From an uncultured Acidobacteriota bacterium (GTDB taxonomy: Bacteria; Acidobacteriota; Thermoanaerobaculia; Gp7-AA8), in NCBI GenBank assembly GCA_963821585.1, contig CAWGEI010000005.1:1094603-1158602 (forward strand): a DNA stretch of 64,000 nt. The letters are read 5' to 3'. Shown here in pieces: positions 4,897-56,548 of this stretch. The notes under the pieces were generated by a model. The model had not been told where the DNA came from. It saw only the letters and a list, made by a program, of their open reading frames with translations, and searched no databases. Positions within the stretch are counted from its first letter, which is position 1. Each line of letters opens with the position of its first letter. A program made the position numbers and the translations under genes.

Positions 4897-5007
4897 TCGT
4901 GGATGCAAGGAGACTTTCGCAGCAGAGAACACAGAGAGCACAAAGGGTTCGCGGCGAAATCGTTGCGGCACGCGTCACTCGGGAACGCGTTATCCTCCCC
5001 ACACCCC

Positions 5008-5223
5008 ATGGACCCGAGGCAGATCATTCACTCCGATCCCGAGATCGTCAGCGGTACGCCGGTGTTCGTTGGAACCCGCGTTCCCGCCCAGGCTCTCCTC
5101 GACTACCTCGAGGGCGGGGAAACGATCGACGAATTCCTCGATGACTTCCCGACCGTATCGCGCGAACAGGTCATCGCATTTCTGGAAGAGGCCGGGCGGG
5201 CATTGCTCGCCAACATCGCGTAA
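5008..5223 (+). CDS. DUF433 domain protein (antitoxin-like small DNA-binding protein)
   Basis: MDPRQIIHSDPEIVSGTPVFVGTRVPAQALLDYLEGGETIDEFLDDFPTVSREQVIAFLEEAG is the typical DUF433 pattern. The internal ATG at 5008 was chosen because the upstream part of ORF 4774.. overlaps a palindromic repeat. Confidence 0.7.
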   Translation: MDPRQIIHSDPEIVSGTPVFVGTRVPAQALLDYLEGGETIDEFLDDFPTVSREQVIAFLEEAGRALLANIA

Positions 5224-5225
5224 GG

Positions 5226-5306
5226 CTCCGTCCCCTCTTGTGCTCTCTGCGCCTCTGTGGTGAATCCCACGCTCCCATTCCCCACAGAGCCACAGAGAAC
5301 ACAGAG
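5226..5306. repeat. CTCTGTG-family inverted repeat after the DUF433 gene
   Basis: CTCCGTCCCCTCTTGTGCTCTCTGCGCCTCTGTGGTGAAT ... CCACAGAGCCACAGAGAACACAGAG. Confidence 0.7.
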
Positions 5307-6445: not shown

Positions 6446-6545
6446 ATCGGCCTCCGTGGCTACGGCCAGCGCGACCCGCTGGTCGAGTACAAGCGCGAAT
6501 CCTTCGAGCTCTTCCAGTCCATGATGGAGCGCATCCAAGACCGCG
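6446..6545 (+). pseudogene. 100-nt fragment of a secA gene (equivalent to secA 4084-4183)
   Basis: 96/100 nt are identical to 4084-4183. The 4 differences are all third-position and synonymous (cgc>cgt, ccc>ccg, ctc>ctg, cag>caa). Homology ends abruptly on both sides. Confidence 0.9.
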
Positions 6546-6617
6546 CCGTGACGCCGTCACGCTTGCGACGCCGCAGCCAGCCGCCCCGGGTTCCGCCGCA
6601 ACCAGGTTTTCGCCGCG

Positions 6618-6652
6618 AAGCCTCTGTGCTCTCTGTGTCTCTGTGGTGAATC
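6618..6652. repeat. solo half-copy of the CTCTGTG...GTGGTGAAT repeat
   Basis: GCCTCTGTGCTCTCTGTGTCTCTGTGGTGAATCGG is nearly identical to the left arm at 55636-55666. No partner arm is visible. Confidence 0.7.
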
Positions 6653-6700
6653 GGTTCCCCTTCGTGCCTGCCGCGCCTGGGACCCGCGGTCGAGAAGAAG

Positions 6701-8986: not shown

Positions 8987-9041
8987 CGTCCCGCTGCCGG
9001 ATCGCATGAGGCCCAGACCCTGGGGGACCCAGGCTCCGGCG

Positions 9042-9488
9042 GAGTCCTGACGTCACCAAGCCGTATGCCTCGCGAGGCACAGGCTGTGGTAACGAAACCA
9101 GACGGAGTCCTATCGTTACCAGACCGTGTGCCTCGCGAGGCACAGCCCTGTCCTAACGAAGCCAGACCGAGTCCTATCGTTACCAGACCGTGTGCCTCGC
9201 GAGGCACAGCCCTGTCCTGACGAAACCAGACCGAGTCCTATCGTTACCAGACCGTGTGCCTCGCGAGGCACAGCCCTGTCCTGACGAAACCAGACGGAGT
9301 CCCATCGTTACCAGACCGTGTGCTTCGCGAGGCACAGCCCTGTCCTGACGAAACCAGACGGAGTCCTATCGTCACCAGGCCGTGTGCTTCGCGAGGCACA
9401 GCCCTGTCCTGACGATGCCAGACGGAGTCCTATCGTCACCAGACCGTGTGCCTCGCGAGGCACAGCCTGTCGTGACGAAGGCACCCGC
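9042..9488. repeat. tandem array, 7 units of 64 bp (first unit 63 bp, last degenerate), each containing the perfect 18-bp palindrome TGTGCCTCGCGAGGCACA
   Basis: GAGTCC unit starts fall at 9042, 9105, 9169, 9233, 9297, 9361 and 9425. The units are near-identical over their full length. Confidence 0.95.
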
Positions 9489-9983
9489 GGATGTTGCCGC
9501 AGGACTCGGGCGTCGTGCGGCGGCACGATCACAGGTGCTGCTAGTCCTGTATAAAAACTCTAGTGTTTTTCTCTTGACTTTGTTTGCGAGCCGGTGCATT
9601 CTGTCCTGGCCGTGGGCGACTCCTGAAGTTGGCGGAGGGTCATGCGGCGGCTTGCGGCGGGTGATCTCCTTCCGCAGGCGCGGTGAGCACGATCCGGAGC
9701 CGGCACGAGCCGGTAGCCTGGACGGAAGCCACTCAGGCACGGCCGGTTTCGGCGCGCGATCAAAAGCCGCGCCTTCTGCCCGGCGGTGCATCCCCAAATC
9801 AGGACTCGTGTACGCACTCGCAAACGGTGCGCGTGCCCGAGTCACGCCTCCCGAGGCCCGCGGCTTCGGGGAACATGGACCCGGAGCTCCGGCGCGTGGC
9901 CGGATCACTCCACCGGGCGTCTTCCGCCAGCCGGCGGCGGACCAGCGTCCGGCTGACCGCAAAATGAGAAAGGGACAACCATC

Positions 9984-10571: not shown

Positions 10572-10685
10572 TCTCTCTGAACAAACGGACGGGTCCGGTC
10601 AGAAAACGTCTCTATCTTCCGTCCTGCCGGATCTCCATCATCTCCATCGGGGGCGCGGGACCGCCCTGACCGAAAGGAGATGTTC

Positions 10686-11045
10686 ATGAAGAAGCGCCTG
10701 CTTTCGCTGTTCGCACTCACCCTCATCGTCCTCGTTGGCGTGGTCCCTGCCGCGCTGGCGGATCACTGCTCGAGATGCTCGACCGGCATGAAATGCCGTC
10801 CCGCTGCCGGGGGCGGCGCCGCCTCGTGTAATGACTCGGTTCCCGGCGTGTGCACCCTCTCCGGCACCTGCGGCGGTCCGCATCCGTTCGTCGAAACGGA
10901 GGACCCGTTCGCCGCCGACTTCATCGTGGCCTCGGTCGAGCGCCTTGACGAGCACACTGCCGGGCACACTGACGAGCCGCGTTCCACCGCATCCTCCGAG
11001 CCGCAGGTAGCGTCGCTCGAGACGCCGCCGGCCGCAAAACGCTGA
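10686..11045 (+). CDS. secreted Cys-rich small protein, paralog A
   Basis: AAAGGAG lies 7 nt before the ATG at 10686. The signal peptide is MKKRLLSLFALTLIVLVGVVPAALA/DH. There are six Cys in the first ~45 mature residues. It is a paralog of 11872-12228. Confidence 0.65.
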   Translation: MKKRLLSLFALTLIVLVGVVPAALADHCSRCSTGMKCRPAAGGGAASCNDSVPGVCTLSGTCGGPHPFVETEDPFAADFIVASVERLDEHTAGHTDEPRSTASSEPQVASLETPPAAKR

Positions 11046-11062
11046 TCCACCCCGGTCCCGCG

Positions 11063-11758
11063 TCACCCCGACTTTCTGGCGAATCGGAGCAGGCTGAAGC
11101 CGAAGACCAGCATCCAGACGGGCAGCAGGTAGTTGTTCACTTCCGCGATGGGGGCGACGGCTGAGGTCACGTTGCGGAACATGCCGATGAGACCGGCGGC
11201 GCTGGTGACGATCCCCAGCCAGCCGGTCCAGCGGGGGAAGCCGCTGCCGTCCTTGAGCATCGCCGACGCGGACAGCAGGAAGAACACGCTGAAGCACAAC
11301 TCGCCGAGGAACTCGCCGATATAGTTGCCGAGGTAGCTGTTCGTTGCATTGAAGACCGCTTCCAGCGCGGGCCGGGCGTCCGGTTGTGCGGCCCAGGTCT
11401 GCGCCAGCTCCCAGTGGAAGCTCGGCCAGCGCATGAGGCCGAGGATCATGGCGAGCGCGGAGATCGCGGCGAAGTACATGCCGAGGCGCACCAGCCCCTC
11501 GCTCCGGGGCCGCAGCGCGTGAAACGCGCCGACCGCGGCGGGGATCCAGAACAAGGGAAGCAGGGCGTAGATCGCCCAGACCGCGCGCCCCGAGGGACCC
11601 GTCGCCAGCAGCGCCGGCAGGACGTCCGCCGCGCGTCCGTCGAGTACGTCCGGATAGTGGAACTGCGCCGCGAGATACGTGAATACCGCCATGAAGGCGA
11701 TAGCGGCGATGATGAGGGAGAAGCCGCTGATACGGATGATGCCGCGGTCACTGTTCAT
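11063..11758 (-). CDS. multi-pass membrane protein (DUF4386-like)
   Basis: Six or more hydrophobic helices; the overall pattern resembles the DUF4386 family. It is convergent with paralog A. Confidence 0.55.
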   Translation of the reverse strand: MNSDRGIIRISGFSLIIAAIAFMAVFTYLAAQFHYPDVLDGRAADVLPALLATGPSGRAVWAIYALLPLFWIPAAVGAFHALRPRSEGLVRLGMYFAAISALAMILGLMRWPSFHWELAQTWAAQPDARPALEAVFNATNSYLGNYIGEFLGELCFSVFFLLSASAMLKDGSGFPRWTGWLGIVTSAAGLIGMFRNVTSAVAPIAEVNNYLLPVWMLVFGFSLLRFARKSG

Positions 11759-11871
11759 TCACGCCAGTATGAACGGACGGGCCCGGTCAGAAAACGTCTC
11801 TATCTTCCCTCCTGCCGGATCTCCATCATCTCCCTCGGGGCGCGGGACCGCCCGACCGAAAGGAGCTGTTC

Positions 11872-12228
11872 ATGAAGAAACGCCTGCTTTCGCTGTTCGC
11901 ACTCACCCTCATCGTCCTCGTTGGCGTGGCCCCTGCCGCGCTGGCGGATCACTGCCACAGATGCTCGGCCGCCGGCACCAAATGCCTTCCCGCTTTCGGT
12001 TCCGGCGGCGCCCAGTGGTGCGACGACATCACGACTCCCGGCACGTGCGTCCTCACCGGCTGGTGTCGCGGTCCGCATCCGCTGATCGAAACGACGGACC
12101 CGTTCGCCGCCGACTTCATCGTGGCCTCGGTCGAGCGCATCGATGAGCATACTGCCGAGCCGCGTTCCACCGCATCCTCCGAGCCTCAGGTAGCGTCGCT
12201 CGCGCCGCCGCCGGCCGCAAAACGCTGA
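11872..12228 (+). CDS. secreted Cys-rich small protein, paralog B
   Basis: MKKRLLSLFALTLIVLVGVAPAALA/DHCHRCSAAGTKCLP... The upstream 100 nt, signal peptide and C-terminal half are nearly identical to paralog A, while the Cys-rich core has diverged. Confidence 0.65.
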   Translation: MKKRLLSLFALTLIVLVGVAPAALADHCHRCSAAGTKCLPAFGSGGAQWCDDITTPGTCVLTGWCRGPHPLIETTDPFAADFIVASVERIDEHTAEPRSTASSEPQVASLAPPPAAKR

Positions 12229-12674
12229 TCCACAGCGGTCCCGCGTCCTATCATTGCGACGATCGGCAGCCCGACGAAGAACACATGACCGACGAGCTGA
12301 ATCCACCAGCGGATGGTGATGTTCGGCGGTCGGTGGACAAGCAGCGGGATGACCACCAGCGACATCACCAGCCACACGAACGGACCGTAAATCGCCGCGA
12401 CCTTCACGATCCCGCCGTGGCGGAGGCGCGGGAAGTACGTGACGAGCAGCAGAAACACGGCGGACCACGCGAAGGCGACGCCGATATGCATCAGAACGCC
12501 GATCAGCGCGGTGCGGGTCCCGCCCTCCAGGGCCGAGGGCCCGAGGAGCACGGAGGCCACGTTCTGCCAGAGCCGCGTGATCGTGGAGCCGTAGAACCCC
12601 TTCGCCAGCACGCAGGCAAAGAGGCCGTCGGTGAGCGCGGTCGCCAGACCGGCAGCGATCAGCCTCCGTAACAT
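12186..12674 (-). CDS. membrane protein, hypothetical
   Basis: Four or five TM helices and good GC3 bias. Its 3' end overlaps the 3' end of paralog B by 43 nt (convergent). Confidence 0.5.
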   Translation of the reverse strand: MLRRLIAAGLATALTDGLFACVLAKGFYGSTITRLWQNVASVLLGPSALEGGTRTALIGVLMHIGVAFAWSAVFLLLVTYFPRLRHGGIVKVAAIYGPFVWLVMSLVVIPLLVHRPPNITIRWWIQLVGHVFFVGLPIVAMIGRGTAVDQRFAAGGGASDAT

Positions 12675-13381: not shown

Positions 13382-13391
13382 CCATTTCCTC

Positions 13392-13504
13392 GAGCCCGCT
13401 CCGCGGGCAAGCGGCTGCCGTAGGCAGCTGGAGGCAATAGCCCCCGGCTTCCAGCCGGGGGAAGGGGCGGGGGGCGCGAAACGAGCCCGCGTAGCGGGCG
13501 GCAG
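13392..13504. repeat. half copy of the ~190-bp nested-palindrome (REPIN-like) family
   Basis: GAGCCCGCTCCGCGGGC ... AATAGCCCCCGGCTTCCAGCCGGGGG ... AAACGAGCCCGCGTAGCGGGCGGCAG. Confidence 0.75.
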
Positions 13505-16850: not shown

Positions 16851-18356
16851 ATGCAGCCATTGCAAGATCGGTACGACGTCGTGATTCTGGGAGGCGCCTT
16901 CAGCGGTGCGTCCGCCGCGATCCTCCTGCGCCGCGAGTGCCCCGATCTCAGCGTGCTGATCGTCGAGAAGGCCGAGCGCTTCGACGAGAAAGTGGGGGAG
17001 GCGACGACCGAGATGTCGGCGATGTTCCTCACCCGCCGCCTGGCGATGTGGCGGCACCTCGAGAACGAGCAGCTCCCGAAGGAGGGGCTGCGCTACTGGT
17101 TCTCGAACGACAAGGTGACGGGCCATGCGAACGCGAGCGAGACCGGCGGGTTCATCCGCAGCACGGTGCCGGCGTTCCAGCTCCGCCGCGACGCGCTCGA
17201 CGAGCACCTGCTCGCGACGGCGGTCGCGGAGGGCGCCGAGCTGTGGCGGAACGCGCGGGCGACAGACGTCGCGATCGGCGACTTCGAGCACCAGGTCACG
17301 GTCGAGGGACGGGTGATCTCGTGCCGCTGGCTCCTCGACGCCACGGGCCGCGCGAACTTCCTCGGCCGCAGGCTCGATCTGATCGAGCGCAATGACGAGC
17401 ATCCGACCGCCGCGATCTGGTGCCGCTGGAAGAACGTGCGGCACATCGACGACATCGCGGCGCGGGGCGGGTTTTCGGCGAGCAACGTGGGCTCGCGCCG
17501 CCTGGGCACGAATCACTACACCGGCTACGGCTACTGGATCTGGGTGATCCCCCTCGGCAACGGCGAGACGAGCATCGGCGTGGTGTTCGACAAGCGGCTG
17601 ATCGGGCTGCACCAGTCGAAGAACCGGGCCGAGGATTTCATCGGGTTCCTGAAGGCGATCCCGTCGCTGGCGGAGCTGCTCGAAGGGGCGGAGCCGCGGC
17701 TCGAAGACCTGCGGTTCTATTCGAGTCTCGCGTACGCCACGAAGCAGTACATGGGCCGCGGCTGGGCACTCCTCGGCGACGCGGCGGCGTTCCTGGATCC
17801 GTATTACTCGCCGGGGCTGGACCACGCGTCGTTCACCTCCGAGGCGACGGTGGAGATGATCAAGAAGGACCGGATGGGCGAGGACCTGACCGCGCGTATC
17901 GCGGAGCACAACGAGACGTTCGTGCGGTCGTACTGGCGGTTCTTCTACGCGGCGTACAAGGACAAGTACTACTACATGGGCGAGGCCGACCTGCTCAGCG
18001 CGGCCATGCTCATCGACACGGCGCAGTACTACATCTTCGTGGTCATCCCGGCGTACAAGTTCCTGAAGCGCTTCGACTGGATGCCGGTCCTCGGCCCGAA
18101 GCCGGCGTTCCTCAGCTACCAGATGATGCAGATGTACAACCGCCGGTTCAAAACGATCGCGGAGAAACGGCGTGCGGCGGGCCGGGCGGGGATGTACAAC
18201 GACGGACGCCGGATCGTCGCGTATTTCAACCTCGGCGTGGCGCCGCTGCAGATGGTGTTGCGCGGGGTGAAGTTGTGGCTGCGCGCGGAGTGGGGGGCGC
18301 TGTGGATGCGGCGTGTTTCGGAGACGTCACGTCCACAAGAATCGCTCGTCGGGTGA
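16851..18356 (+). CDS. FAD-dependent oxidoreductase of the flavin-dependent halogenase family
   Basis: N-terminal DVVILGGAFSG (GxGxxG), the W-I-W-V-I-P sequence matching the WxWxIP halogenase-family motif, and GDAAAFLDPYYSPGL. Confidence 0.7.
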   Translation: MQPLQDRYDVVILGGAFSGASAAILLRRECPDLSVLIVEKAERFDEKVGEATTEMSAMFLTRRLAMWRHLENEQLPKEGLRYWFSNDKVTGHANASETGGFIRSTVPAFQLRRDALDEHLLATAVAEGAELWRNARATDVAIGDFEHQVTVEGRVISCRWLLDATGRANFLGRRLDLIERNDEHPTAAIWCRWKNVRHIDDIAARGGFSASNVGSRRLGTNHYTGYGYWIWVIPLGNGETSIGVVFDKRLIGLHQSKNRAEDFIGFLKAIPSLAELLEGAEPRLEDLRFYSSLAYATKQYMGRGWALLGDAAAFLDPYYSPGLDHASFTSEATVEMIKKDRMGEDLTARIAEHNETFVRSYWRFFYAAYKDKYYYMGEADLLSAAMLIDTAQYYIFVVIPAYKFLKRFDWMPVLGPKPAFLSYQMMQMYNRRFKTIAEKRRAAGRAGMYNDGRRIVAYFNLGVAPLQMVLRGVKLWLRAEWGALWMRRVSETSRPQESLVG

Positions 18357-18779
18357 GATGCCGTGACGCGCAAGTAATCGCACGTATTCATCGCGGAACG
18401 ATGTTTTCGCGTGATGGATCTTCTGGCGTTCAATGTAGCGCGCAACGATCGCCAGTTGCGACTGGCTGACGCTGAATGCGCTGTAGCCGCGTTGCCATTC
18501 GAAGCGGGTGTGTTCGGGAAAGGTCTCGTGGATCCACTTTGAGGCGCAGCCTTTCACCTTTCCCACGATCTCGGCGGAGGATGCCGTTGGGGGCATGGAG
18601 AGGAGGATGTGCAGGTGGTCCTCGACGCCGTTGATGTTGAGGAGTTTCCCGTGCAATTCGCGGACGATGCCGCCGATGTAGGGGTACAGGCGTTCTTCGA
18701 GGGCGGGATCGATTTGCGGTTTGCGGTCCCTGGTCGAGAACACCACGTGGGTGTAGAGAGCGTTGTAGCTGTGCGGCAT
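18327..18779 (-). mobile_element. IS200/IS605-type Y1 (HUH) transposase-like gene, probable REP-associated tyrosine transposase (RAYT)
   Basis: HLHILLS (HUH) and ARYIERQ (catalytic Tyr, YIxxQ) motifs in 150 aa. No tnpB and no IS ends are seen. A REPIN-like element lies ~50 bp upstream. The 3' end overlaps the oxidoreductase 3' end by 30 nt. Confidence 0.8.
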
Positions 18780-18827
18780 GCGTATCGACGCATGCGGAAG
18801 TCCCGCGGGGATGGTACCTCGGATGTT

Positions 18828-19020
18828 CTGTCGCCCGCTACGCGGGCTCGTTTTTCGTGTCCGCGTCCCGGTTCCCCCGGCTGAAGCCGGCGGCTATTAC
18901 CTAAAGCCTGCTACGCAGGCAACCTCTTGCCCGCGTAGCGGGCAGCCAGACAATAGACCCCGGCTTCAGCCGGGGGACGCGACGAGCGCGCAAGCGGGGA
19001 GCCCGCGTAGCGGGCGACAG
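18828..19020. repeat. ~190-bp nested-palindrome (REPIN-like) element, full copy
   Basis: CTGTCGCCCGCTACGCGGGCTCGTTT ... CCCCCGGCTGAAGCCGG ... GCCCGCGTAGCGGGC ... AATAGACCCCGGCTTCAGCCGGGGG ... GAGCCCGCGTAGCGGGCGACAG. Confidence 0.9.
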
Positions 19021-19029
19021 AAACGCACC

Positions 19030-20325
19030 CTACAACGCCGCCAGCGCCGCGCGTTTGATCTTGCCGCGCTCGTCGACCGGCATCTGCTCGATGAGCTTCA
19101 CGATGCGTGGAACCTTGTGCAACGACAACCGCGTGCGGCAGAACTCGCGCACCTGCTCCCGTGTCACGTCCGGCGTCGCCACGATCGCCGCGGCCACGAC
19201 TTCGCCGCGCGCACCGGCGGGCTCGCCGTACACCTTGGCCTCGCTGACGCCTTCGATCTGCAGCAATACCGCTTCGACCTCGCGCGGGTTGACCTTCTTC
19301 CCCGCGGTGTTGATCAAATCACTCGCGCGGCCGATGAGGGCGATCTCGCCGTCGCGCTCCTCGACGAGATCGTCCGAAACGAACGAACCCTCGGCGAACG
19401 CCTCGAACGTATTCGCGTCGAACAGATACCCCGCCGCAACAGAGCGGCTGCGCACCGACAACCGCTTCGCGTCCGTCGCCAGCGTCACGCCTTCGAGCGC
19501 ACCGCCGACCGTCCCCCGCTCCACCGCCCCGCCGCGGCGGTCGTACGTGATCCCGCCGCACTCGCTGCAGCCATAGAACGAGTGCACGTCGATGCCGAAC
19601 CGCTCGCGGAACTTCCGCGACGTCGACGCCGGCAGCGGCGCGCCCGCGGAGATGAACGTCCGCACGGTCTCGAACGCCCCGTGTGCGGCAATGGCGAGGT
19701 GCTCGAACACCATCGGGATCAGCGGTGCCACCGTGCAGCGGTACTCATTCGCCAGATCGACGAGCGACTGCGGCAGGTAGTCGTTCGACACGACCACCGG
19801 CGTCCCCTGCACGAGCAGCGGCATCACCAGGTTCGAGAAGCCGTAGGAGTGCGAGAACGGGATCGCGCCGAGGTTCACGTCATCCGGCGTGATGCCCATC
19901 GTGGCGCAGATGTTCGTGCAGTCCGCGATGAGGTTCGCCTCCGTCGTCACGATCCCCTTCGGCATCGCCGTCGAGCCGGACGTCAGCTTCACCAGCCGCG
20001 CGTCCGAGGGAACGTCGGCGCGGCGGCCGATCCCGAAGTGGCGGTGGATGCCGGCGACCTCGGTGCCGGTCGCGTCGCGGTCGATGAGGAACACGACCAG
20101 GTCGAGTTTCACCGCGGCCAGGAACGTGGCTACGAAGTCGACCGAGTTCGGGAGCTGGATGGCGAAGCCGTCCCGGGCCTGCACACCCGACGCGGCGAGG
20201 TGGGCCGCGAGCTCGTCGGCGCGGCCGAGGAGCATGGCCCGGGTGGTGACGAAACCGGTGGTGCCGTCGATCAGCGCCGCCGCCTCGGGGGCCTCGCGCA
20301 CGAGTGACTCAAATCGTTGGTGCAT
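19030..20325 (-). CDS. AMP-dependent acyl-CoA/acyl-ACP ligase
   Basis: LTSGSTAMPKG (AMP-binding core motif), FYGCSECGG, GRASDLINTAGKKVNPREVE and a terminal DERGKIKR. The internal ATG (MHQRF) was chosen; the longer track ORF overlaps the ACP gene. Confidence 0.8.
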   Translation of the reverse strand: MHQRFESLVREAPEAAALIDGTTGFVTTRAMLLGRADELAAHLAASGVQARDGFAIQLPNSVDFVATFLAAVKLDLVVFLIDRDATGTEVAGIHRHFGIGRRADVPSDARLVKLTSGSTAMPKGIVTTEANLIADCTNICATMGITPDDVNLGAIPFSHSYGFSNLVMPLLVQGTPVVVSNDYLPQSLVDLANEYRCTVAPLIPMVFEHLAIAAHGAFETVRTFISAGAPLPASTSRKFRERFGIDVHSFYGCSECGGITYDRRGGAVERGTVGGALEGVTLATDAKRLSVRSRSVAAGYLFDANTFEAFAEGSFVSDDLVEERDGEIALIGRASDLINTAGKKVNPREVEAVLLQIEGVSEAKVYGEPAGARGEVVAAAIVATPDVTREQVREFCRTRLSLHKVPRIVKLIEQMPVDERGKIKRAALAAL

Positions 20326-20347
20326 TGGACTTAAAGGGCAGAATAAC

Positions 20348-20632
20348 ATGCACGATATGACCACTGACCTCAGACGAAAACTCAAGGAGCTGCTCATCGA
20401 GCGGCTGAAGTTCGAAGACATGACCCCGGACGACATCCCGGACGACGAGCCGCTCTTCGCCGGCGGCCTCGGCCTGGACTCCATCGACGCGCTGGAGATC
20501 GTGGTGATGCTGGAGAGCGAGTTCGGGATCAAGGTGAAGAACGAGACGTCGGCGCGCGAGTCGTTCCGCTCGATCTCCACGCTCGCGGACTACGTCGGCG
20601 TGAAGCTCGCGCTCGAGCAGCCGCAGGCGTGA
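20348..20632 (+). CDS. acyl carrier protein
   Basis: GGLGLDSIDALEIVVMLESEFG phosphopantetheine attachment motif in ~94 aa. Confidence 0.85.
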   Translation: MHDMTTDLRRKLKELLIERLKFEDMTPDDIPDDEPLFAGGLGLDSIDALEIVVMLESEFGIKVKNETSARESFRSISTLADYVGVKLALEQPQA

Positions 20633-20633
20633 C

Positions 20634-21002
20634 GTGACTTGGCTCAGAAACCTGCCTCATCAGATTCCGTTTCGCGCGGCGAGTGCCGCGCGGAGAATCG
20701 ATGAGAAGACCATCGAGGGCGAGTATCTCGTCACCGCGAACGACACGCTGCCGGTCGGCGTGATGGCGGTCGAGGCGATGGCGCAGTGCGCGGGCGGGCT
20801 GGTGTTCGAGGAGCAGGGCTTCTTCAGCGGCATCGATCGTTGCGAGCTCGTCCGGCAGCTGGAAGTCGGCGATGTCCTGGTCTGCACGGTCACGTTGGAA
20901 GCGGACTTCGGCGGCACGTTCCGCTTCAGTGGAATCGGACGGGTCGATGGAGTAGAAGTCGTGAGGGGCAGGTTCTATCTGTCCGCCCGTGCGCATCCCT
21001 GA
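20634..21002 (+). CDS. hot-dog fold dehydratase-like protein (ApeI/FabZ-like)
   Basis: Size, position between the ACP and KS genes, and the pattern PVGVMAVEAMAQCAGGL...GRVDGVEVVRGRFYL. Confidence 0.55.
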   Translation: MTWLRNLPHQIPFRAASAARRIDEKTIEGEYLVTANDTLPVGVMAVEAMAQCAGGLVFEEQGFFSGIDRCELVRQLEVGDVLVCTVTLEADFGGTFRFSGIGRVDGVEVVRGRFYLSARAHP

Positions 21003-22176
21003 TCTGGACACGCGAATCGCCGTCACCGGTGCCGGCATCGTCTGCTCCATCGGCCGGAACAAGGCCGAGGTGTGGCGGTCGATCGTGGAGTCGCGGGCGG
21101 GGATCGCGAAGCTGACGCGGTTCGAAGGCGAGACCTTCCCCACGGACCTTGCGGCTGAGGTGGACGTGGCGCTGCCGAAAAGCAAGCGGTTGTCGCGGAC
21201 GGATCTGCTCGCGGTCGTTGCGGCACGGGAGGCAATCGAACAGGCGGGAGAGATCCCGCTCGAGCGAGCGGTCGTCTCAACGGGCACGAGCACGGGCGGT
21301 CTGCTGGAAGGCGAGGATTACTACCTCCGCCGCCTGATCCACGGACGGCGCCGCGCACCCGCCTCGCGCGTGCTGCAGCAGCCGACCTCCGGTCCCTCGG
21401 ACGCCGTCGCTCAGGCGTTCCAACTCGGCGGCGGCGTGGTCTCGAATGCGACGGCGTGCGCGTCGGCCGGCGCGGCGATCGGGATGGCCGCGGATTACCT
21501 CCGCTCTCATCACGCGGACGTCGCGATCGCGGGCGGCAGCGACGCGCTCTGCCGGCTGACGTACAGCGGCTTCAACGTGCTCCAGGCGGTCGATCCCGAG
21601 CCGTGCTCGCCGTTCGGCGCAAACCGCAAAGGCATCACCCTTGGCGAAGGCGCGGGCTATCTCGTCCTCGAGCGCTGGGACGACGCGGTCGCGCGCGGCG
21701 CGACCATCCTCGCCGAGCTCTCCGGCTACGGTGCGTCGTGTGATGCGCACCATCCGACGGCTCCCGCGGAAGACGGCCGCGGCGCGGAGGCGGCGATGCG
21801 CGGTGCGTTGTCGGAAGGACGGTTGGCGCCTGCGTCGGTGGACTACGTGAACGCGCACGGCACCGGCACCACCCTCAACGACGCCGCCGAGACCCGCGCG
21901 ATCATCGCCGCCCTCGGCACGGACGTTCCGGCGTCGTCCAGCAAGTCGTACTTCGGCCACACGCTCGGCGCGTCCGGCGCGATCGAGGCGGTGGTGACCG
22001 TGCTCGCGCTGCAGAACCAGATCGCGCCGCCGACGCTGCGTTTGCACGAACGGGCCGTGGAGTGCGCGCTGGACTACATCCCCGAAACGCCGCGCCCGAT
22101 GGCGATGACGAACGTGCTGTCGAACACGTTCGGGTTCGGCGGGAGCAACGTGTCGCTGCTTTTCCGCCGCGTCTGA
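20989..22176 (+). CDS. beta-ketoacyl synthase (KS-alpha, FabF-like)
   Basis: Active-site Cys in NATACASAG, His in CDAHHPTAP and NAHGTGT, and the C-terminal FGFGGSN. Confidence 0.9.
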   Translation: MRIPDLDTRIAVTGAGIVCSIGRNKAEVWRSIVESRAGIAKLTRFEGETFPTDLAAEVDVALPKSKRLSRTDLLAVVAAREAIEQAGEIPLERAVVSTGTSTGGLLEGEDYYLRRLIHGRRRAPASRVLQQPTSGPSDAVAQAFQLGGGVVSNATACASAGAAIGMAADYLRSHHADVAIAGGSDALCRLTYSGFNVLQAVDPEPCSPFGANRKGITLGEGAGYLVLERWDDAVARGATILAELSGYGASCDAHHPTAPAEDGRGAEAAMRGALSEGRLAPASVDYVNAHGTGTTLNDAAETRAIIAALGTDVPASSSKSYFGHTLGASGAIEAVVTVLALQNQIAPPTLRLHERAVECALDYIPETPRPMAMTNVLSNTFGFGGSNVSLLFRRV

Positions 22177-22180
22177 CGCC

Positions 22181-22368
22181 CTGTCGCCCGCTACGCGGGC
22201 TCGTTTGCATCCTGCCGCGCGTTCCCCCGGCTGAAGCCGGGGTCTATTTTCTGGCTGCCCGCTACGCGGGCAAGAGGTTGCCTGCGGAGCAGGCTTCAGG
22301 GAATAGACCCCGGCTTCAGCCGGGGGACGCGCGGCAGGATGCAAACGAGCCCGCGTAGCGGGCGACAG
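22181..22368. repeat. ~190-bp nested-palindrome (REPIN-like) element between the KS-alpha and KS-beta genes
   Basis: Same termini as the 18828 copy. The internal spacers 22207-22221 and 22328-22342 are perfect reverse complements. Confidence 0.9.
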
Positions 22369-22396
22369 ACCACCGCGTGCTATAACCCCGCCCCGC

Positions 22397-23458
22397 GTGC
22401 GCATCCCCATCACCGGCATCGGCGTGATCGCTCCCGGCGCGATCGGCATCGAGGCGTTCCGTGCGTTGCTGGCGAGCGGGGCGAGTGCGGTGGCGGAGGT
22501 CGATCGGTTCGACACCACCGGACTCTCCGCGCACACGGCCGCTCTCGTGCGCGACTTCAAGCCGAAGGACTTCATCCCGGTGATGAAGATGCGGCGGATG
22601 AACGCGCTCTCGCGCCTCGGCGTGGCGGCGGCGAAGCTGGCGATCGAGGACTGCGGCGGCGTGCTGACACCGGAGACGGGTGTGGCGATCGGGACGGCGT
22701 TCGGGCCGGTGCAGACATCGGTCGAGTACATGCAGGAGTATGTCGAGAAGGGCGCGGCGCTGGCGCCTCCGCAGCTGTTCGCGGAGTCGGTGGCGAACGC
22801 GCCGGGGAGTCACATCGCGATCGAGTGGGGATTGCGCGGGTTCAACGTGACGATCACGCAGCGGGAGTCGTCCGCACTCGCCGCGACGATGTACGCGGCG
22901 GCGCAGCTGGCGAAGGGCACGGTGCGCGCGGCGCTGATCGGCGGGGTGGAGGAGGCGAACGAGATGCTGTTCAGCGTGCTCGATCGCATCGGCGCCCTCG
23001 CACACGACAATCACCCGGGCATCATCCTCGGCGAAGGGGGCGCGGTGCTGGTCGCAGGTGCGGGAACGCGGAAGCCGTACGGCTGGCTCGCGGGTTTCGG
23101 CATCGCGCGCGACACGACGGCGACGATCTCGAACTACGGAAGCGATCCGCGCGCGATCGTGAGGGCCGTACAGGCAGCGATGGACGACGCGGGCGTGTCT
23201 CACATCGACGCGATCTACCCGTCGATGAATGGGTCGGTGATGGGCGACGCCACGGAGAGGGCAGCGCTGGACGCTCTTCCGCAGGTGGAGCTGGTGCCGA
23301 CGAAGCAGGTCTTCGGCGAGTACGCCGCCGGCGGCGCGCTGCAGATCGCGGCGGCGCTGGTCGCGCTGGATGAAGGGCGCTACCGCAACGTGCTGGTGAA
23401 TTCCATCTCCGCCGGCGGCGGTATCGTCTGCGCTGTACTTTCCCGGGAGGCCGCGTGA
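22397..23458 (+). CDS. KS-like protein lacking the active-site Cys (chain-length-factor / KS-beta type)
   Basis: Thiolase-fold pattern (ITGIGVIAPG...), but Ser occupies the Cys position (TQRESSALAA) and the His-His pair is not evident. Confidence 0.7.
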   Translation: MRIPITGIGVIAPGAIGIEAFRALLASGASAVAEVDRFDTTGLSAHTAALVRDFKPKDFIPVMKMRRMNALSRLGVAAAKLAIEDCGGVLTPETGVAIGTAFGPVQTSVEYMQEYVEKGAALAPPQLFAESVANAPGSHIAIEWGLRGFNVTITQRESSALAATMYAAAQLAKGTVRAALIGGVEEANEMLFSVLDRIGALAHDNHPGIILGEGGAVLVAGAGTRKPYGWLAGFGIARDTTATISNYGSDPRAIVRAVQAAMDDAGVSHIDAIYPSMNGSVMGDATERAALDALPQVELVPTKQVFGEYAAGGALQIAAALVALDEGRYRNVLVNSISAGGGIVCAVLSREAA

Positions 23459-24123
23459 TCGTTGCAATCATCCCCGCGTTGAACGCCGAGCGCACGGTGC
23501 GCGCCGTCATCGAACAGGCGCTGCAGCAGATCCAGCCGGTGCTCGTCATCGACGACGGCTCGAGCGATCGGACCGGGGACGTCGCGCGCGCCGCGGGCGC
23601 GATCGTGCTGCGGCACGAAGTGAACCGCGGCAAGGGCGCGGCGCTGAAGACGGGCTTCGCCTGGGCGCGGGAGAACGGCTACGACGGCGTCATCACGCTC
23701 GACGCGGACGGCCAGCACCTCCCGTCGGAGATCCCGAAGTTCCTCCGCCAGCGCGAGACCGGCGGCGAAGACCTGATCATCGGCGGACGCGCGCACCTCT
23801 TCGGCCAGATGCTTCCGCGCCGCCGCAACGCGAACCGCTTCTCCGCGTGGTGCATCGCCAAATGCTCCGGCGTGGCCATCACCGACTCGCAGAGCGGCTT
23901 CCGCTTCTACTCCGCCGGCCTGATCGACGGCATCCAGCTGCACACCAACGGCTTCGACATGGAGAGCGAAGTGATCGTGCGTGCGGGGCGCAAGGGGTTC
24001 CGGATCGTGACCATCCCGATCGACCTGGGGTTTGTGGATGGGTTGTCGACCAGCCACTACAAGCCGCTGAAGGACACGTTGCGGATTGCCTGGACGGTCA
24101 CGCGCGCAAGGTTGTTCTGGTAA
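23455..24123 (+). CDS. glycosyltransferase family 2
   Basis: IIPALNAE...VIDDGSSDRT...NRGKGAAL...LDADGQH...DSQSGFR. The GTG start overlaps the previous stop (GTGA). Confidence 0.85.
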   Translation: MIVAIIPALNAERTVRAVIEQALQQIQPVLVIDDGSSDRTGDVARAAGAIVLRHEVNRGKGAALKTGFAWARENGYDGVITLDADGQHLPSEIPKFLRQRETGGEDLIIGGRAHLFGQMLPRRRNANRFSAWCIAKCSGVAITDSQSGFRFYSAGLIDGIQLHTNGFDMESEVIVRAGRKGFRIVTIPIDLGFVDGLSTSHYKPLKDTLRIAWTVTRARLFW

Positions 24124-28542: not shown

Positions 28543-28628
28543 GCGAAAGTGGCGGAATTGGCAGACGCGCTGGACTTAGGATCCAGTGGCCCAAAGCCGT
28601 GTGGGTTCGAGTCCCACCTTTCGCACCA
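28543..28628 (+). tRNA. tRNA-Leu (anticodon TAG), long variable arm, CCA encoded
   Basis: Acceptor stem GCGAAAG/CTTTCGC, anticodon stem-loop CTGGA-CT-TAG-GA-TCCAG, T arm GTGGG-TTCGAGT-CCCAC, then A-CCA. Confidence 0.9.
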
Positions 28629-28631
28629 ACC

Positions 28632-28725
28632 CAGTTGACAGTTCGCAGTTGGCAGTTGACAGGAACCATCGGCCGAAGCCGCGTCCCTGAGCTCCTGTCA
28701 ACTGCCAACTGTCAACTGCCAACTG
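28632..28725. repeat. GTTGGCAGTTGACAGG-family hairpin (33-nt arms of CAGTTGN heptamers)
   Basis: CAGTTGACAGTTCGCAGTTGGCAGTTGACAGGA ... TCCTGTCAACTGCCAACTGTCAACTGCCAACTG. Confidence 0.85.
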
Positions 28726-28731
28726 AAGACT

Positions 28732-30003
28732 ATGACCGTTCTTAATTACGAAGAGCTTTCCCCCGTCCAGAAGACCATCGAAGTCGAGATCCCTGCCGCT
28801 CTGCTGACCCGCGAGGCGGACCGCGTGACGAACGAGTTCGGCCGCCAGGCCAACGTTCCCGGTTTCCGTCCCGGCAAGATCCCGGCGAGCGTGATCCGTT
28901 CGCGCTTCGCGAAGGAGATCCAGGAGGAAGTGGTCACCCGCGTTCTCGGGGAATCCTTCCGCCACGCGATGCAGGAGAAGGGGCTCGAGCCGGTCGGTGA
29001 GCCGCGCCTGGAGCACATCGATCCGTTCATCGAGGGCGCGCCGATGAAGTACAAGGCGGTCTTCGAAGTGAAGCCGCAGATCGACCTCGGCGAGTACCGC
29101 GGCATCGAGGTCTCGGAGCCGACGATCGAGGTGACGGAGACGGACGTCGACGCGATGATCGAGCGCCTGCGCGATCAGGCCAGCGCGTACCGCGTCGAGA
29201 CCGAGCGCGGGCTCGACGACGGCGACTTCGCCGTGATCGAGATCGCCTCCTCCGCCGACGACATCGAGACCAAGACCGACGCCGGCCACTTCAAGATGGG
29301 CGAGGAGACGCCGCTGCCCGAGCTGCACGACGAGCTGCGCGGCAAGAAGGCCGGCGAGGTGGCCTCGTTCGACAAGGCCTACGGCGAGGACGCGAGCCAG
29401 GAAGGATGGCGCGGCAAGACCATCCACCACGACGTCACGCTGAAAGAGATCCGCATCCAGGAGAAGCCCGAGGTCAACGACGAGTTCGCGAAATCCGTCG
29501 GCGGCTGGGACACGGTCGCGCTGATGCGCGAGACCATCGAGGGCGACATCCGCAAGCACCGCGAGGTCGAGGCCCAGCGCTTCAAACGCACCCAGGTCGG
29601 CGAGAAGCTGCTCGCCGCGCACACCTTCGACGTGCCGGACACGCTGGTCGACGAAGAGCTCGGGAAGTCGCTGAACAACTACGCGCGCTACCTCGCGTCG
29701 CAGGGAGTGAACCTGGAGCAGGCGGAGATCGACTGGCGCAAGATCGGGGAGGAGTTCCGCCCCGAGGCCGTCAAGCGCGTGAAGCGGTCGCTGATCCTCG
29801 AAGCGATCGCGAAGAAAGAAGGACTCGACGTGAGCGACGTGGAAGTCGACGCCGAGATCCGCCGCGCCGCCCGCGAGCAGGAGCGCGAGTTCGCCGACGT
29901 GAAGCACCACCTCAAGCACGAAGGCGGCTACGAAGCGCTGCGCGGGTCCCTGGCGCAGGAGCGGGCGCTGGAGCTGGTGCTGAGCGAGGCGAAGGCGCAC
30001 TGA
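28732..30003 (+). CDS. tig: trigger factor
   Basis: The N-terminal ribosome-binding region contains GFRPGKIPASVIRSRF. Full-length Tig architecture, located upstream of clpP-clpX-lon. Confidence 0.95.
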   Translation: MTVLNYEELSPVQKTIEVEIPAALLTREADRVTNEFGRQANVPGFRPGKIPASVIRSRFAKEIQEEVVTRVLGESFRHAMQEKGLEPVGEPRLEHIDPFIEGAPMKYKAVFEVKPQIDLGEYRGIEVSEPTIEVTETDVDAMIERLRDQASAYRVETERGLDDGDFAVIEIASSADDIETKTDAGHFKMGEETPLPELHDELRGKKAGEVASFDKAYGEDASQEGWRGKTIHHDVTLKEIRIQEKPEVNDEFAKSVGGWDTVALMRETIEGDIRKHREVEAQRFKRTQVGEKLLAAHTFDVPDTLVDEELGKSLNNYARYLASQGVNLEQAEIDWRKIGEEFRPEAVKRVKRSLILEAIAKKEGLDVSDVEVDAEIRRAAREQEREFADVKHHLKHEGGYEALRGSLAQERALELVLSEAKAH

Positions 30004-47544: not shown

Positions 47545-47738
47545 CTGTCGCCCGCTACGCGGGCTCGTTTTTGCGTTGCCAACGAAGCCCCCGGCTGAAA
47601 GCCGGGGGCTATTTTCTTTTGCCCGCTACGCGGGCTCAGTCTCTTGCCCGCGTAGCGGGCTGCAGACAATAGCCCCCGGCTTCAGCCGGGGGACGCGCGG
47701 GGCGTCATCGTTGGAGAGCCCGCGTCAGCGGGCGACAG
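47545..47738. repeat. ~190-bp nested-palindrome (REPIN-like) element
   Basis: CTGTCGCCCGCTACGCGGGCTCGTTT ... GAGCCCGCGTCAGCGGGCGACAG. It begins 2 nt after the peptidase stop. Confidence 0.9.
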
Positions 47739-56359: not shown

Positions 56360-56548
56360 CTGTCGCCCGCTGACGCGGGCTCGTTTCGTGCCCGCGCGTT
56401 GTCCCCGGCTGAAGCCGGGGTCTATTCTCTATCGCCCGCTACGCGGGCGGGAGAACGGGCCCGCGTAGCGGGCCAAAGGAAATAGCCCACGGCTTCAGCC
56501 GTGGGAAGACGGTGTGGGAGCAAACCAGCCCGCGTCAGCGGGCGACAG
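56360..56548. repeat. ~190-bp nested-palindrome (REPIN-like) element
   Basis: CTGTCGCCCGCTGACGCGGGCTCGTTT ... CAGCCCGCGTCAGCGGGCGACAG. Confidence 0.9.

What the first reader, a model, noticed from the sequence alone, without database searches (positions are those of the whole stretch)
18327..19020. RAYT-like Y1 transposase next to a ~190-bp nested-palindrome repeat family (REPIN-like, 5 copies)
The copies lie at 18828-19020, 22181-22368, 47545-47738 and 56360-56548, with a half copy at 13392-13504. The conserved termini are CTGTCGCCCGCTACGCGGGCTCGTTT and AAACGAGCCCGCGTAGCGGGCGACAG. The internal modules are CCCCGGCTGAAGCCGGGG, a central GCCCGCTACGCGGGC / GCCCGCGTAGCGGGC pair, and AATAGACCCCGGCTTCAGCCGGGGG. 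The left and right halves are reverse complements, so the element can fold into one long hairpin or into six small ones. In copy 22181 the copy-specific spacers (22207-22221 GCATCCTGCCGCGCG and 22328-22342 CGCGCGGCAGGATGC) are perfectly complementary, which is covariation that preserves pairing. One copy lies ~50 bp upstream of a stand-alone IS200/IS605-type Y1 transposase gene carrying HLHIL and YIERQ, with no TnpB and no IS ends. This is the REP/REPIN-RAYT relationship described mainly in proteobacteria. Copies begin within a few nt of stop codons, and one splits the KS-alpha/KS-beta gene pair.
Basis: partly seen in the sequence, partly recalled or inferred. Interest (0 to 1): 0.6.

Follow-up and report, generated by a model that had tools for sequence, protein, structure and literature searches.

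The report
Hairpin repeat family with its Y1 transposase
A 190-base six-hairpin palindrome scattered about 180 times through this soil Acidobacterium's genome is tied to the one small IS200-like DNA-cutting enzyme gene beside it, in an enzyme subclass that the literature says has no partner repeats.

Summary
All five window copies are where stated, except that the half copy starts at 13382. Genome-wide there are 179 loci, 92 of them full length.

The neighbouring 150-aa gene is the only close copy in the 8.2-Mb genome. It is not a RAYT in the strict sense. NCBIfam scores it 79.6 bits for IS200 and 22.4 bits for the REP transposase model, and it shows no similarity to E. coli RayT. It carries the DHxH, WQ and Y---Q--HH signature of TnpA-Y1 subclass 1.2, which is published as having no REP.

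The REP/RAYT-style relationship still holds:
- Orthologues and paralogues in relatives are bracketed by inverted copies of the same CTGYC-tagged hairpins.
- In the genus, the hairpin occurs only in genomes that have the gene.
- In 201 Acidobacteriota, the inner two-hairpin module, which scores as the orphan Rfam motif Acido-Lenti-1, co-occurs with the gene (36/3/14/148, p = 8e-25).
- Homologues in other phyla carry the same module on both sides.

Relatives show empty sites for two window insertions, and there are no target duplications.

No two copies exceed 88% identity, so the family is old.

Verdict: a new variant of a known kind, of moderate to good interest.

The parts
18327..18779 (-). 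Single-copy Y1/HUH gene, 150 aa, of TnpA-Y1 subclass 1.2 type. It carries DHLH (HUH), WQ and YIERQKIHH motifs and a C-terminal FxxE..L..H...D..LW tail.
   Evidence: Pfam Y1_Tnp scores 95 bits. NCBIfam transpos_IS200 scores 79.6 bits against 22.4 for REP_Tyr_transpos. tblastn finds one close copy in the genome. The motifs are invariant in the 21-sequence alignment.
18776..18795 (-). Leader hairpin GCATGCG-TCGATA-CGCATGC whose 3' arm contains the ATG start codon. It lies in a conserved 48-nt leader (18780-18827) between the element end and the gene.
   Evidence: It is conserved in 5 genomes, and 2 of 8 stem pairs change on both sides with pairing kept (sequences).
18828..19020 (.). Full element copy 1, which abuts the Y1 leader. 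It consists of:
- CTGTC tag 18828-18832
- terminal hairpin 18833-18847
- inner hairpin plus CTATT ~18875-18898
- central hairpins 18906-18920 and 18929-18943
- AATAG plus hairpin 18952-18975
- terminal hairpin 19001-19015
- GACAG 19016-19020
   Evidence: nhmmer covers the full model, positions 1-190, at 154.6 bits. The ssDNA fold is -88 kcal/mol with z = -14.
18317..19029 (.). Approximate extent of the inserted block (Y1 gene, leader and element) between the convergent flavoprotein and AMP-ligase genes.
   Evidence: In G001 and G012 the two genes abut or overlap directly, giving an empty site. In relatives the flavoprotein match ends about 10 aa before the G000 stop codon.
22181..22368 (.). 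Full element copy 2, between the KS-alpha stop (22176) and the KS-beta start (22397). It is the one window copy with complementary spacers.
   Evidence: nhmmer scores 163.8 bits. The arms are 98% complementary over 47 nt. The ssDNA fold is -121 kcal/mol. The site is empty in G001, G007 and G012.
47545..47738 (.). Full element copy 3, starting 2 nt after the stop codon of ORF 45266-47542.
56360..56548 (.). Full element copy 4, starting 7 nt after the stop codon of ORF 55657-56352. Its inner stem carries a compensated variant (CCCACGGC/GCCGTGGG).
13382..13504 (.). Partial copy covering model positions 1-127, with a CTGCC terminus variant.

Best explanation
The ~190-nt elements are non-autonomous composite palindromes of the REPIN/BIME type. 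Each is two inverted ~95-nt units. One unit reads: CTGYC tag, 6-bp terminal hairpin, ~17-nt free spacer, 7-8-bp hairpin followed by CTATT (AATAG on the other strand), then a second 6-bp hairpin.

The adjacent single-copy gene encodes their cognate single-strand DNA nuclease/transposase. It is an HUH/Y1 enzyme of the IS200-related subclass 1.2.

Inferred mechanism, by analogy with IS608 TnpA and E. coli TnpA-REP: the enzyme binds the hairpins when DNA is single-stranded. It cuts and rejoins at the tag, about 5 nt outside the terminal hairpin foot. Units, dimers and the gene-carrying block are thereby excised and inserted without target duplication, mostly just after stop codons. The gene's own translation is probably held down by a hairpin that buries its ATG.

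Shown here:
- the family census and anatomy;
- compensated hairpins;
- absence of target duplications;
- empty sites in relatives;
- gene-repeat adjacency and co-occurrence across genomes and phyla.

Inferred only: catalysis on these hairpins, the exact cleavage positions, and whether the system is still active.
For: - **Census.** There are 179 loci, 92 of them full length. The boundary is sharp at CTGTC, with a pyrimidine at -1 in 81% of ends.
- **Adjacency in this genome.** Only this Y1 gene has an element next to it, 48 nt away. The other two Y1-domain ORFs are 11 and 38 kb from any copy.
- **Orthologues.** Orthologues at 57-69% identity in G008, G021, G023 and G007 abut the same termini. 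The GACAG/CTGTC ends face the gene, about 48 nt before the ATG and 2 nt after the stop. The neighbouring genes differ between genomes.
- **Paralogues and distant homologues.** These are bracketed by inverted hairpin modules of their own sequence. The variant CTGYC-GCCCC-TCC-GGGGC is multi-copy only in genomes that have the gene, and it starts 6-7 nt after the gene's stop codon in G002 and G013.
- **Genus-level co-occurrence.** The hairpin 15-mer occurs in 7 of 25 genomes, and all 7 have a Y1 homologue (p = 2.5e-4).
- **Phylum-level co-occurrence.** Across 201 Acidobacteriota, Acido-Lenti-1 against the Y1 gene gives 36 both, 3 gene only, 14 motif only and 148 neither (odds ratio 127, p = 8e-25).
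- **Other phyla.** RF01687 hits at or above the gathering score lie within ~350 nt of the gene in 16 of 30 loci. The degenerate AATAGCCC-N5-TTNA-N5-GGG module is multi-copy in 9 of 16 genomes, with 0 control hits and N5 stretches that nearly always pair.
- **Hairpin selection.** Small-hairpin stems show 154 doubly compensated cells against 53 broken ones.
- **No target duplications**.
- **Mobility.** Relatives show empty sites for both the Y1 block and the KS-alpha/beta copy.
- **Catalytic residues.** The HUH motif and Tyr/Gln align with those of IS608 TnpA.
Against:
- No two full copies exceed 88% identity, and the spacers are near-random (mean 0.38). There is therefore no sign of recent bursts, and something other than copying keeps the hairpins conserved.
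- In this genome the gene has an element on its 5' side only.
- Fourteen genomes carry the motif without the gene, four of them (G141, G099, G193, G153) with 4-21 hits.
- G002, G013 and G014 carry the GCCCGC hairpin but only 43-46%-identical paralogues.
- Orientation shows no bias against GC skew.
- The published survey of subclass 1.2 found no REP (PMC6006769).
Confidence: 0.7

Rival explanations
1. This is an ordinary autonomous IS200-type insertion sequence, and the 190-nt palindromes are its gene-less (MITE/PATE-like) derivatives. The system would be purely selfish and not REPtron-like.
For: - The protein is class 1 and passes the NCBIfam IS200 equivalog cut-off.
- Its best solved relatives are IS608 and ISDra2 TnpA.
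- The gene is patchily distributed in the genus, in 10 of 25 genomes.
- Its neighbours differ between genomes.
- The ~710-bp gene-plus-element block is an insertion relative to G001 and G012.
- There are no target duplications.
- The start codon is buried in a hairpin, which resembles my recollection of IS200.
Against: - There is one gene copy against 179 repeats.
- Copies within other genomes are only 32-57% identical to the query, as divergent paralogues rather than IS copies.
- The element termini face the gene, so the gene lies outside the repeat units rather than between LE- and RE-type ends.
- The flanking hairpins are inverted, not direct.
- The protein has the Y---Q--HH motif and C-terminal tail of the non-IS subclass 1.2 (PMC6006769).
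Confidence: 0.15
2. The adjacency reflects target preference. An IS200-like gene inserts next to pre-existing hairpin repeats, as REP-targeting insertion sequences do. The repeats are spread or maintained by something else.
For:
- 14 of 50 motif-positive genomes lack the gene.
- Repeat copies are old.
- That REP-targeting insertion sequences exist is my own recollection, not tested here.
Against: - The geometry is the same in every case: inverted units on both sides, the tag 2-7 nt after the stop codon and ~48 nt before the ATG.
- Each paralogue has its own hairpin variant.
- Only 3 of 39 gene-positive genomes lack the motif, and most motif-only genomes have just 1-4 weak hits.
- The module flanks the gene across at least five phyla.
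Confidence: 0.1
3. The elements are primarily host RNA or DNA structure elements, such as terminators, mRNA stabilisers or the 'Acido-Lenti-1 sRNA'. They would be unrelated to transposition.
For: - They lie just after stop codons and are enriched between convergent genes, 37% against 20% at random positions.
- Hairpin stems are compensated while spacers drift.
- Rfam lists the inner module as an sRNA gene (PMC2864571).
Against: - The elements are palindromic dimers present in both orientations.
- 16 of 179 lie inside long proxy ORFs.
- Presence or absence differs at orthologous sites.
- They are tightly linked to a Y1 nuclease gene.
- A secondary terminator role is not excluded.
Confidence: 0.05

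Closest known systems
REPtron / REPIN-RAYT systems (E. coli TnpA-REP with REP/BIME; Pseudomonas REPINs; PMC3116915, PMC5581495, PMC3479197)
   Same: - A single-copy Y1/HUH gene is bracketed by inverted hairpin repeats.
- The same repeats are dispersed in about 10^2 copies after genes, mostly as inverted dimers.
- Each gene variant has its own hairpin variant.
- There are no target duplications.
   Different: - The enzyme is class 1 (Y---Q--HH), not class 2 (Y---NP), and has no detectable similarity to RayT.
- The repeat unit has three hairpins and carries CTGYC and ATAG tags instead of GT[AG]G.
- The gene is patchy in the genus and sits on an insertion, so it is not vertically stable.
- There is no master sequence and there are no identical copies.
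TnpA-Y1 subclass 1.2 (Quentin et al. 2018, PMC6006769); possibly the 'IS200 Group 3' of Bertels et al. 2017 (PMC5581495)
   Same: - Motifs DHxH, WQ and Y---Q--HH.
- About 148-150 aa with a conserved ~30-aa C-terminal tail.
- Low copy number, with low identity between copies.
   Different: - The subclass was published as having no REP and as mostly Cyanobacteria and Bacteroidetes.
- Here it has a clear partner repeat, and it occurs in Acidobacteriota, Verrucomicrobiota, Planctomycetota, Chloroflexota and Nitrospirota loci.
- The equation with Bertels' Group 3, which had abundant flanking 16-mers and no duplicates, was not tested.
Rfam RF01687 Acido-Lenti-1 RNA motif (Weinberg et al. 2010, PMC2864571)
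   Same: - The inner module is an 8-bp hairpin, then GCUAUU, then a 5-6-bp hairpin.
- Hits at or above the gathering score flank the Y1 gene in many loci.
- They occur inside at least one full element of this genome, at 44.7 bits.
   Different: [quoted passage not shown]
- Here it behaves as a DNA repeat tied to a nuclease gene.
- The tested window copy (18828-19020) scores only 14.3 bits.
IS200/IS605 insertion sequences (IS608, ISDra2)
   Same: - Closest fold and sequence relatives.
- The HUH motif and Tyr/Gln catalytic residues align.
- Hairpin-dependent ssDNA chemistry without target duplication is the model borrowed here.
   Different: - There are no multi-copy identical units.
- There is no tnpB.
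- The flanking hairpins are inverted.
- Gene-less repeats outnumber the gene 179 to 1.
CGTC/TGTC-tagged REPs (Di Nocera et al. 2013, PMC3733652)
   Same: - An unpaired (C/T)GTC-like tag lies next to a small hairpin.
- Inverted dimers predominate.
- Those repeats were reported to lack a dedicated transposase.
   Different: Those families have 8-9-bp stems starting with A-T pairs, 4-5-nt loops and a CCA tail. Here the stem is a 6-bp all-GC stem with a 3-nt loop, so this is not a member.

Membership tests
RAYT / TnpA-REP (class 2 TnpA-Y1) | Protein matches the REP-associated tyrosine transposase model and has the Y---NP motif. | tested here: not met
   NF047646 scores 22.4 bits against a cut-off of 80. 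The motif is YIERQKIHH. BLASTP against E. coli RayT gives E = 0.21. The profile does not hit 4ER8 even at E <= 10.
RAYT / REPtron system | Single or low-copy gene flanked by inverted hairpin repeats that are also dispersed in high copy number. | tested here: met
   There is one close copy. An element lies 48 nt from the ATG in the window. Both sides are flanked in G008, G021 and G023. The genome holds 179 loci.
RAYT / REPtron system | GT[AG]G tetranucleotide at the 5' foot of the REP hairpin. | tested here: not met
   The tags are CTGTC at the terminal hairpin and (A)ATAG at the inner hairpin.
RAYT / REPtron system | Predominantly vertical inheritance at a stable locus. | tested here: not met
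   The gene is present in 10 of 25 same-genus genomes. Its neighbours differ between genomes. It lies on a ~710-bp insertion absent from G001 and G012.
RAYT / REPtron system | The enzyme cleaves and joins its cognate REP ssDNA. | not testable with these tools
   This needs purified protein and oligonucleotide assays.
TnpA-Y1 subclass 1.2 (Quentin 2018) | DH[IV]H, WQ and Y---Q--HH motifs; ~148 aa with a conserved C-terminal domain. | tested here: met
   H55, H57, W95, Q96, Y115, Q119, H122 and H123 are invariant in 21 sequences. The C-terminal positions F128, E131 and L136 are invariant, and H139, D144 and L148 are at least 90% conserved. The protein is 150 aa. The window protein has DHLH, with L in place of I/V.
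TnpA-Y1 subclass 1.2 (Quentin 2018) | Low copy number with low identity between copies in one genome. | tested here: met
   There is 1 copy in G000 and 1-8 per genome elsewhere, at 32-57% identity to the query.
TnpA-Y1 subclass 1.2 (Quentin 2018) | No associated REP-like repeats (a published property). | tested here: not met
   Flanking, dispersed hairpin modules were found in nearly every locus examined.
IS200/IS605 insertion sequence (subclass 1.1) | TnpA passes the IS200 family model. | tested here: met
   NF033573 scores 79.6 bits against a cut-off of 55, and all 21 aligned homologues match it.
IS200/IS605 insertion sequence (subclass 1.1) | Multi-copy, near-identical units with LE/RE subterminal hairpins around the gene; W[TS] and Y[IV]ENQ motifs. 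| tested here: not met
   The gene is single-copy. The flanking hairpins are inverted and belong to a 179-member gene-less family. The motifs are WQ and Y---Q--HH.
Rfam RF01687 Acido-Lenti-1 | Covariance-model score of at least 37 bits. | tested here: inconclusive
   The window copy scores 14.3 bits. The genome has 18 hits at E <= 1e-3. The best scores 44.7 bits and lies inside full element C5:709500-709684. Homologous loci in other phyla score 37-51 bits.
DDE-type MITE | Terminal inverted repeats with target-site duplications. | tested here: not met
   The longest shared flank word has the same distribution in true and mismatched flank pairs, over 80 elements.
CGTC-tagged REP families 1-4 (Di Nocera 2013) | 8-9-bp stem beginning with A-T pairs, 4-5-nt loop, CCA tail. 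| tested here: not met
   The consensus is a 6-bp GCCCGC stem with a 3-nt loop and no CCA tail. Only the TGTC tag resembles those families.

The most novel reading that the evidence does not exclude
Subclass-1.2 Y1 genes and their multi-hairpin modules (the 'Acido-Lenti-1' motif) form a widespread, undescribed second lineage of REP-type systems across at least five phyla. It would have arisen on the IS200 side of the family rather than the RAYT side. In it the gene travels with its hairpins as a small cassette. The hairpins would be kept uniform not by copying but by enzyme-driven rewriting or conversion, while the spacers drift to randomness.
Probability: 0.3. Interest if true: 0.75.

Novelty: new variant of a known kind. 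Interest (0 to 1): 0.55.

Why it matters
- It extends the pairing of a domesticated-looking Y1 nuclease with its own genomic hairpin repeats from RAYTs to an IS200-like subclass that was published as repeat-free.
- It extends that pairing from Proteobacteria to Acidobacteriota and several other phyla.
- It offers a concrete explanation for an abundant orphan Rfam motif, Acido-Lenti-1. That motif would be a DNA-level repeat of a transposase-like enzyme rather than an sRNA.
- It provides a natural system for asking how hairpin repeats stay conserved without recent copying: the modules are conserved and the spacers are scrambled.
- It matters for annotation. These elements split operons, supply stop codons and alter the C-termini of genes in a PKS/FAS-like cluster.

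Tried and rejected
- **Pairing termini with a fuzzy 21-mer.** This confused terminal and central hairpins. I replaced it with profile coordinates.
- **Spacer complementarity as general covariation.** Rejected: the own-pair mean is 0.61 against 0.58 for mismatched pairs.
- **Target-site duplications.** None were found. The imperfect 9-nt repeat around copy 22181 is an isolated case.
- **Orientation bias against GC skew.** There is none (34:31). The skew is weak, so this is uninformative.
- **Rfam at gathering threshold on the window.** Only two tRNAs were found. The element's hits to plant miRNA models are far below threshold and reflect long-hairpin artefacts.
- **The other two Y1-domain ORFs of the genome as mobilisers.** They are 11-38 kb from any copy, and one is class 2.1/TIRYT-like.
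- **Membership in the CGTC-REP families.** Rejected on stem and loop geometry.
- **A formal tree against RAYT groups.** Not built. Model scores, motifs and PDB profile hits already separate class 1 from class 2, and loci of other genomes could not be read in the Python box.
Full report
**Observation**

The terminal 26-mer occurs five times in the window, against none in 100 shuffles. A profile built from the four full copies and iterated on the genome finds 179 non-overlapping loci. Of these, 92 are full length (165-200 nt) and about 48 are half units. The held assembly is 8.17 Mb, 66% G+C, in 5 contigs.

In the window the copies lie at 18828-19020, 22181-22368, 47545-47738 and 56360-56548. 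A partial copy lies at 13382-13504.

The 92-copy consensus reads as follows:
- CTGTC-GCCCGCTACGCGGGC-TCGTTT
- a ~17-nt spacer
- CCCCGGCTGAAGCCGGGG-TCTATT
- GCCCGCTACGCGGGC, then TG..CTCTT, then GCCCGCGTAGCGGGC
- AATAGA-CCCCGGCTTCAGCCGGGG
- a second spacer
- AAACGA-GCCCGCGTAGCGGGC-GACAG

The hairpin cores are at least 90% conserved (most positions). The spacers are near-random.

As ssDNA, copies 18828 and 22181 fold at -88 and -121 kcal/mol, with z-scores of -14 and -22. The window copies start 2-9 nt from stop codons.

- The perfect complementarity of the two spacers in copy 22181 is unusual. Across 92 copies, left-versus-right spacer complementarity averages 0.61 for true pairs and 0.58 for mismatched pairs. 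Only 7 copies reach 0.8.
- Compensation is seen in the six small hairpins instead, with 154 doubly changed but still paired cells against 53 broken ones.
- No two full copies are more than 88% identical. Module identity averages 0.84 and spacer identity 0.38.

The family is therefore old, and its hairpins are kept by something other than recent copying.

**The gene**

ORF 18327-18779(-) encodes 150 aa with a Pfam Y1_Tnp domain at 95 bits.
- NCBIfam places it in the IS200/IS605 transposase equivalog (79.6 bits, cut-off 55). It does not place it in REP-associated tyrosine transposase (22.4 bits, cut-off 80).
- Its solved relatives are IS608, ISDra2 and Sulfolobus TnpA. The E. coli TnpA-REP structure is not hit, even with a 21-sequence profile at E <= 10.
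- BLASTP against E. coli RayT is not significant.

An alignment with 20 homologues from several phyla shows invariant H55, H57, W95-Q96, Y115, Q119, H122 and H123, plus a conserved C-terminal tail. This is the signature Quentin et al. give for TnpA-Y1 subclass 1.2: DH[IV]H, WQ, YIKNQKEHH, a median of 148 aa and low copy number. They list that subclass as 'REP: no' and as mostly Cyanobacteria and Bacteroidetes (PMC6006769).

Bertels et al. noted an 'IS200 Group 3' with no duplicates, no plasmid copies and abundant flanking 16-mers. It may be the same group, but I did not test that.

The genome has one close copy of the gene. Two distant Y1-domain ORFs lie elsewhere. One carries a YVVLNP motif, which I read as class 2.1/TIRYT-like. 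They lie 11 and 38 kb from any element, whereas the window gene is 48 nt from one.

**Association in relatives**

Among 24 same-genus genomes, the hairpin 15-mer GCCCGCTACGCGGGC is present at 5-197 copies in six. It is absent from the rest, and controls give 0-1 hits. All six, and G000, have a homologue of the gene. No genome without the gene has the hairpin (Fisher p = 2.5e-4, not corrected for phylogeny).

Reading the loci gives the following picture:
- In G008 the gene lies between two full elements. They have the same termini but different inner modules.
- In G021 and G023 the gene lies between two half units. Their GACAG/CTGTC ends face the gene, about 48 nt before the ATG and 2 nt after the stop codon.
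- In G007 a full element follows the gene.
- The neighbouring genes differ in each genome.
- More distant paralogues (43-51% identity) in G002, G003, G013, G014, G015, G026 and G027 have inverted hairpin modules of their own next to the gene. These lie on both sides in all but G003, where they lie downstream only.
- The variant CTGYC-GCCCC-TCC-GGGGC is multi-copy in G013, G026 and G027. It starts 6-7 nt after the stop codon in G002 and G013.

The tag CTGYC is constant while the stems and loops vary.

**Beyond the genus**

More than 470 loci in species-representative genomes encode relatives at 45-55% identity. They come from Verrucomicrobiota, Planctomycetota, Chloroflexota, Nitrospirota and Acidobacteriota.

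In 12 of these loci the gene has inverted hairpin modules around or beside it. Many of them contain AATAG followed by a CCC...GGG hairpin.

The degenerate pattern AATAGCCC-N5-TTNA-N5-GGG is multi-copy in 9 of 16 such genomes, with zero control hits. The N5 stretches nearly always pair, although pairing was not required. Hits often come as inverted pairs 110-150 nt apart.

RF01687 (Acido-Lenti-1) hits these modules at or above its gathering score in 16 of 30 loci. The hits are almost always within ~350 nt of the gene and often on both sides in inverted orientation. The window copy scores only 14.3 bits. The genome nevertheless has 18 hits at E <= 1e-3, and the best, at 44.7 bits, lies inside a full element.

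Across 201 Acidobacteriota genomes the counts are as follows:

| Acido-Lenti-1 motif | Y1 gene (E <= 1e-15) | Genomes |
|---|---|---|
| present | present | 36 |
| absent | present | 3 |
| present | absent | 14 |
| absent | absent | 148 |

The odds ratio is 127 and p = 8e-25.

The motif was published as a candidate sRNA. [quoted passage not shown]

**Mobility**

- The flavoprotein and AMP-ligase genes that flank the Y1 block abut directly in G001 and G012. G000 therefore carries an insertion of about 710 bp, roughly 18317-19029, made of gene, leader and element. This insertion replaced the flavoprotein's native C-terminus.
- The copy between KS-alpha and KS-beta is absent from G001, G007 and G012.
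- Eighty elements show no target-site duplication beyond chance.
- The element boundary is sharp, with a pyrimidine at -1 in 81% of ends.
- Elements are enriched between convergent genes (37% against 20%) and are rarely found between divergent ones.
- Twenty-three tail-to-tail junctions with 1-18-nt gaps exist. This is the geometry the gene occupies elsewhere.

**Leader**

Between the element end and the ATG lies a conserved 48-nt leader. Its 7-8-bp hairpin includes the start codon. Two of its stem positions change on both sides across five genomes with pairing kept. This suggests translational restraint. It is an inference from few sequences.

**Interpretation**

The best reading (about 0.7) is a REP/RAYT-like system whose enzyme belongs to IS200-like subclass 1.2. 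The elements are its non-autonomous hairpin substrates, cut and joined as ssDNA near the CTGYC tag. Catalysis, the cleavage sites and current activity are all inferred.

The rivals are:
- an ordinary IS200 with gene-less derivatives (0.15);
- a gene that merely targets pre-existing hairpins (0.1);
- purely host RNA or terminator elements (0.05).

**Limits**

- There is no biochemical or read-level evidence.
- The gene model used for context is a GC3-based proxy covering 68% of the genome.
- The association tests are not corrected for phylogeny.
- The genome search scored at most 28 Rfam candidates per genome, so copy numbers saturate.

**Novelty**

This is a new variant of a known kind. The logic is that of REPtrons, but three things differ from what the searched papers report: the enzyme subclass, the three-hairpin unit with CTGYC/ATAG tags, and the link to Acido-Lenti-1. 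The host phyla are also wider than those published for this subclass.

Earlier AI notes of this scan reached similar readings. I treat them as leads and re-tested the parts I use.

Noticed in passing
window 16851-24123: A type II PKS/FAS-like cassette is interrupted twice by this repeat system. Relatives G001, G007 and G012 have it uninterrupted at both sites.
   Followed up: partly
window 18327-18356: The flavoprotein ORF (16851-18356) now ends inside the antisense of the Y1 gene's 3' end. Its last ~10 residues have no counterpart in 20 relatives, so the insertion rewrote its C-terminus.
   Followed up: partly
window 22165-22400: The KS-alpha stop codon TGA lies in 8 nt (CTGACGCC) just left of the element. 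The ancestral end ...CGCGTGCTATAAC now sits on the right of the element. This gives an imperfect 9-nt repeat (CCGCCGCGT / CCACCGCGT) that the family as a whole does not show.
   Followed up: partly
L097 (G013:C53), same convergent junction as window ~18320: G013 carries a different insert at the same junction between the flavoprotein and AMP-ligase genes: a run of short CCTATTCGT/CCTATAC-like repeats. The site seems to attract repeats.
   Followed up: no
genome C3, C4, C5 (e.g. C3:3385960-3386024, C3:3953489-3953552): There are 23 tail-to-tail junctions of two element termini, with gaps of 1-8 or 16-18 nt. The longer gaps share AGATCG.ACG.TCCTCTC. This is a second arrangement of the same units.
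   Followed up: no
window 4782-4898 and 50290-50384: Another palindromic repeat family is built on AACGTAGGGCGTGGCTTCAGCCCGCC (GTAG-containing arms). It is distinct from the family studied here.
   Followed up: no
window 1309-1340, 28628-28737, 32151-32188: Hairpins whose arms are runs of a CAACTGC-type heptamer.
   Followed up: no
window 9020-9531 and 43727-44020: Tandem arrays of a 64-nt unit (about 8 copies) and of a 21-nt unit (about 14 copies).
   Followed up: no
window 4437-4482, 5222-5268, 6612-6654, 55626-55717: A further short repeat, CTCTGTGCTCTCTGTGTCTCTGTGGTGAATCC, in direct and inverted copies.
   Followed up: no
genome C3:4404640-4404969 (L002) and C3:342112-342342 (L003): Two other Y1_Tnp-domain ORFs. 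L002 has a YVVLNP motif and a long C-terminal extension, so it looks class 2.1/TIRYT-like. Neither has a copy of this element nearby.
   Followed up: partly
window 4084-4183 and 6446-6545; 10665-11064 and 11851-12247: Two pairs of near-identical coding-looking segments, 96% and 84-93% identical, which suggests local gene duplications.
   Followed up: no
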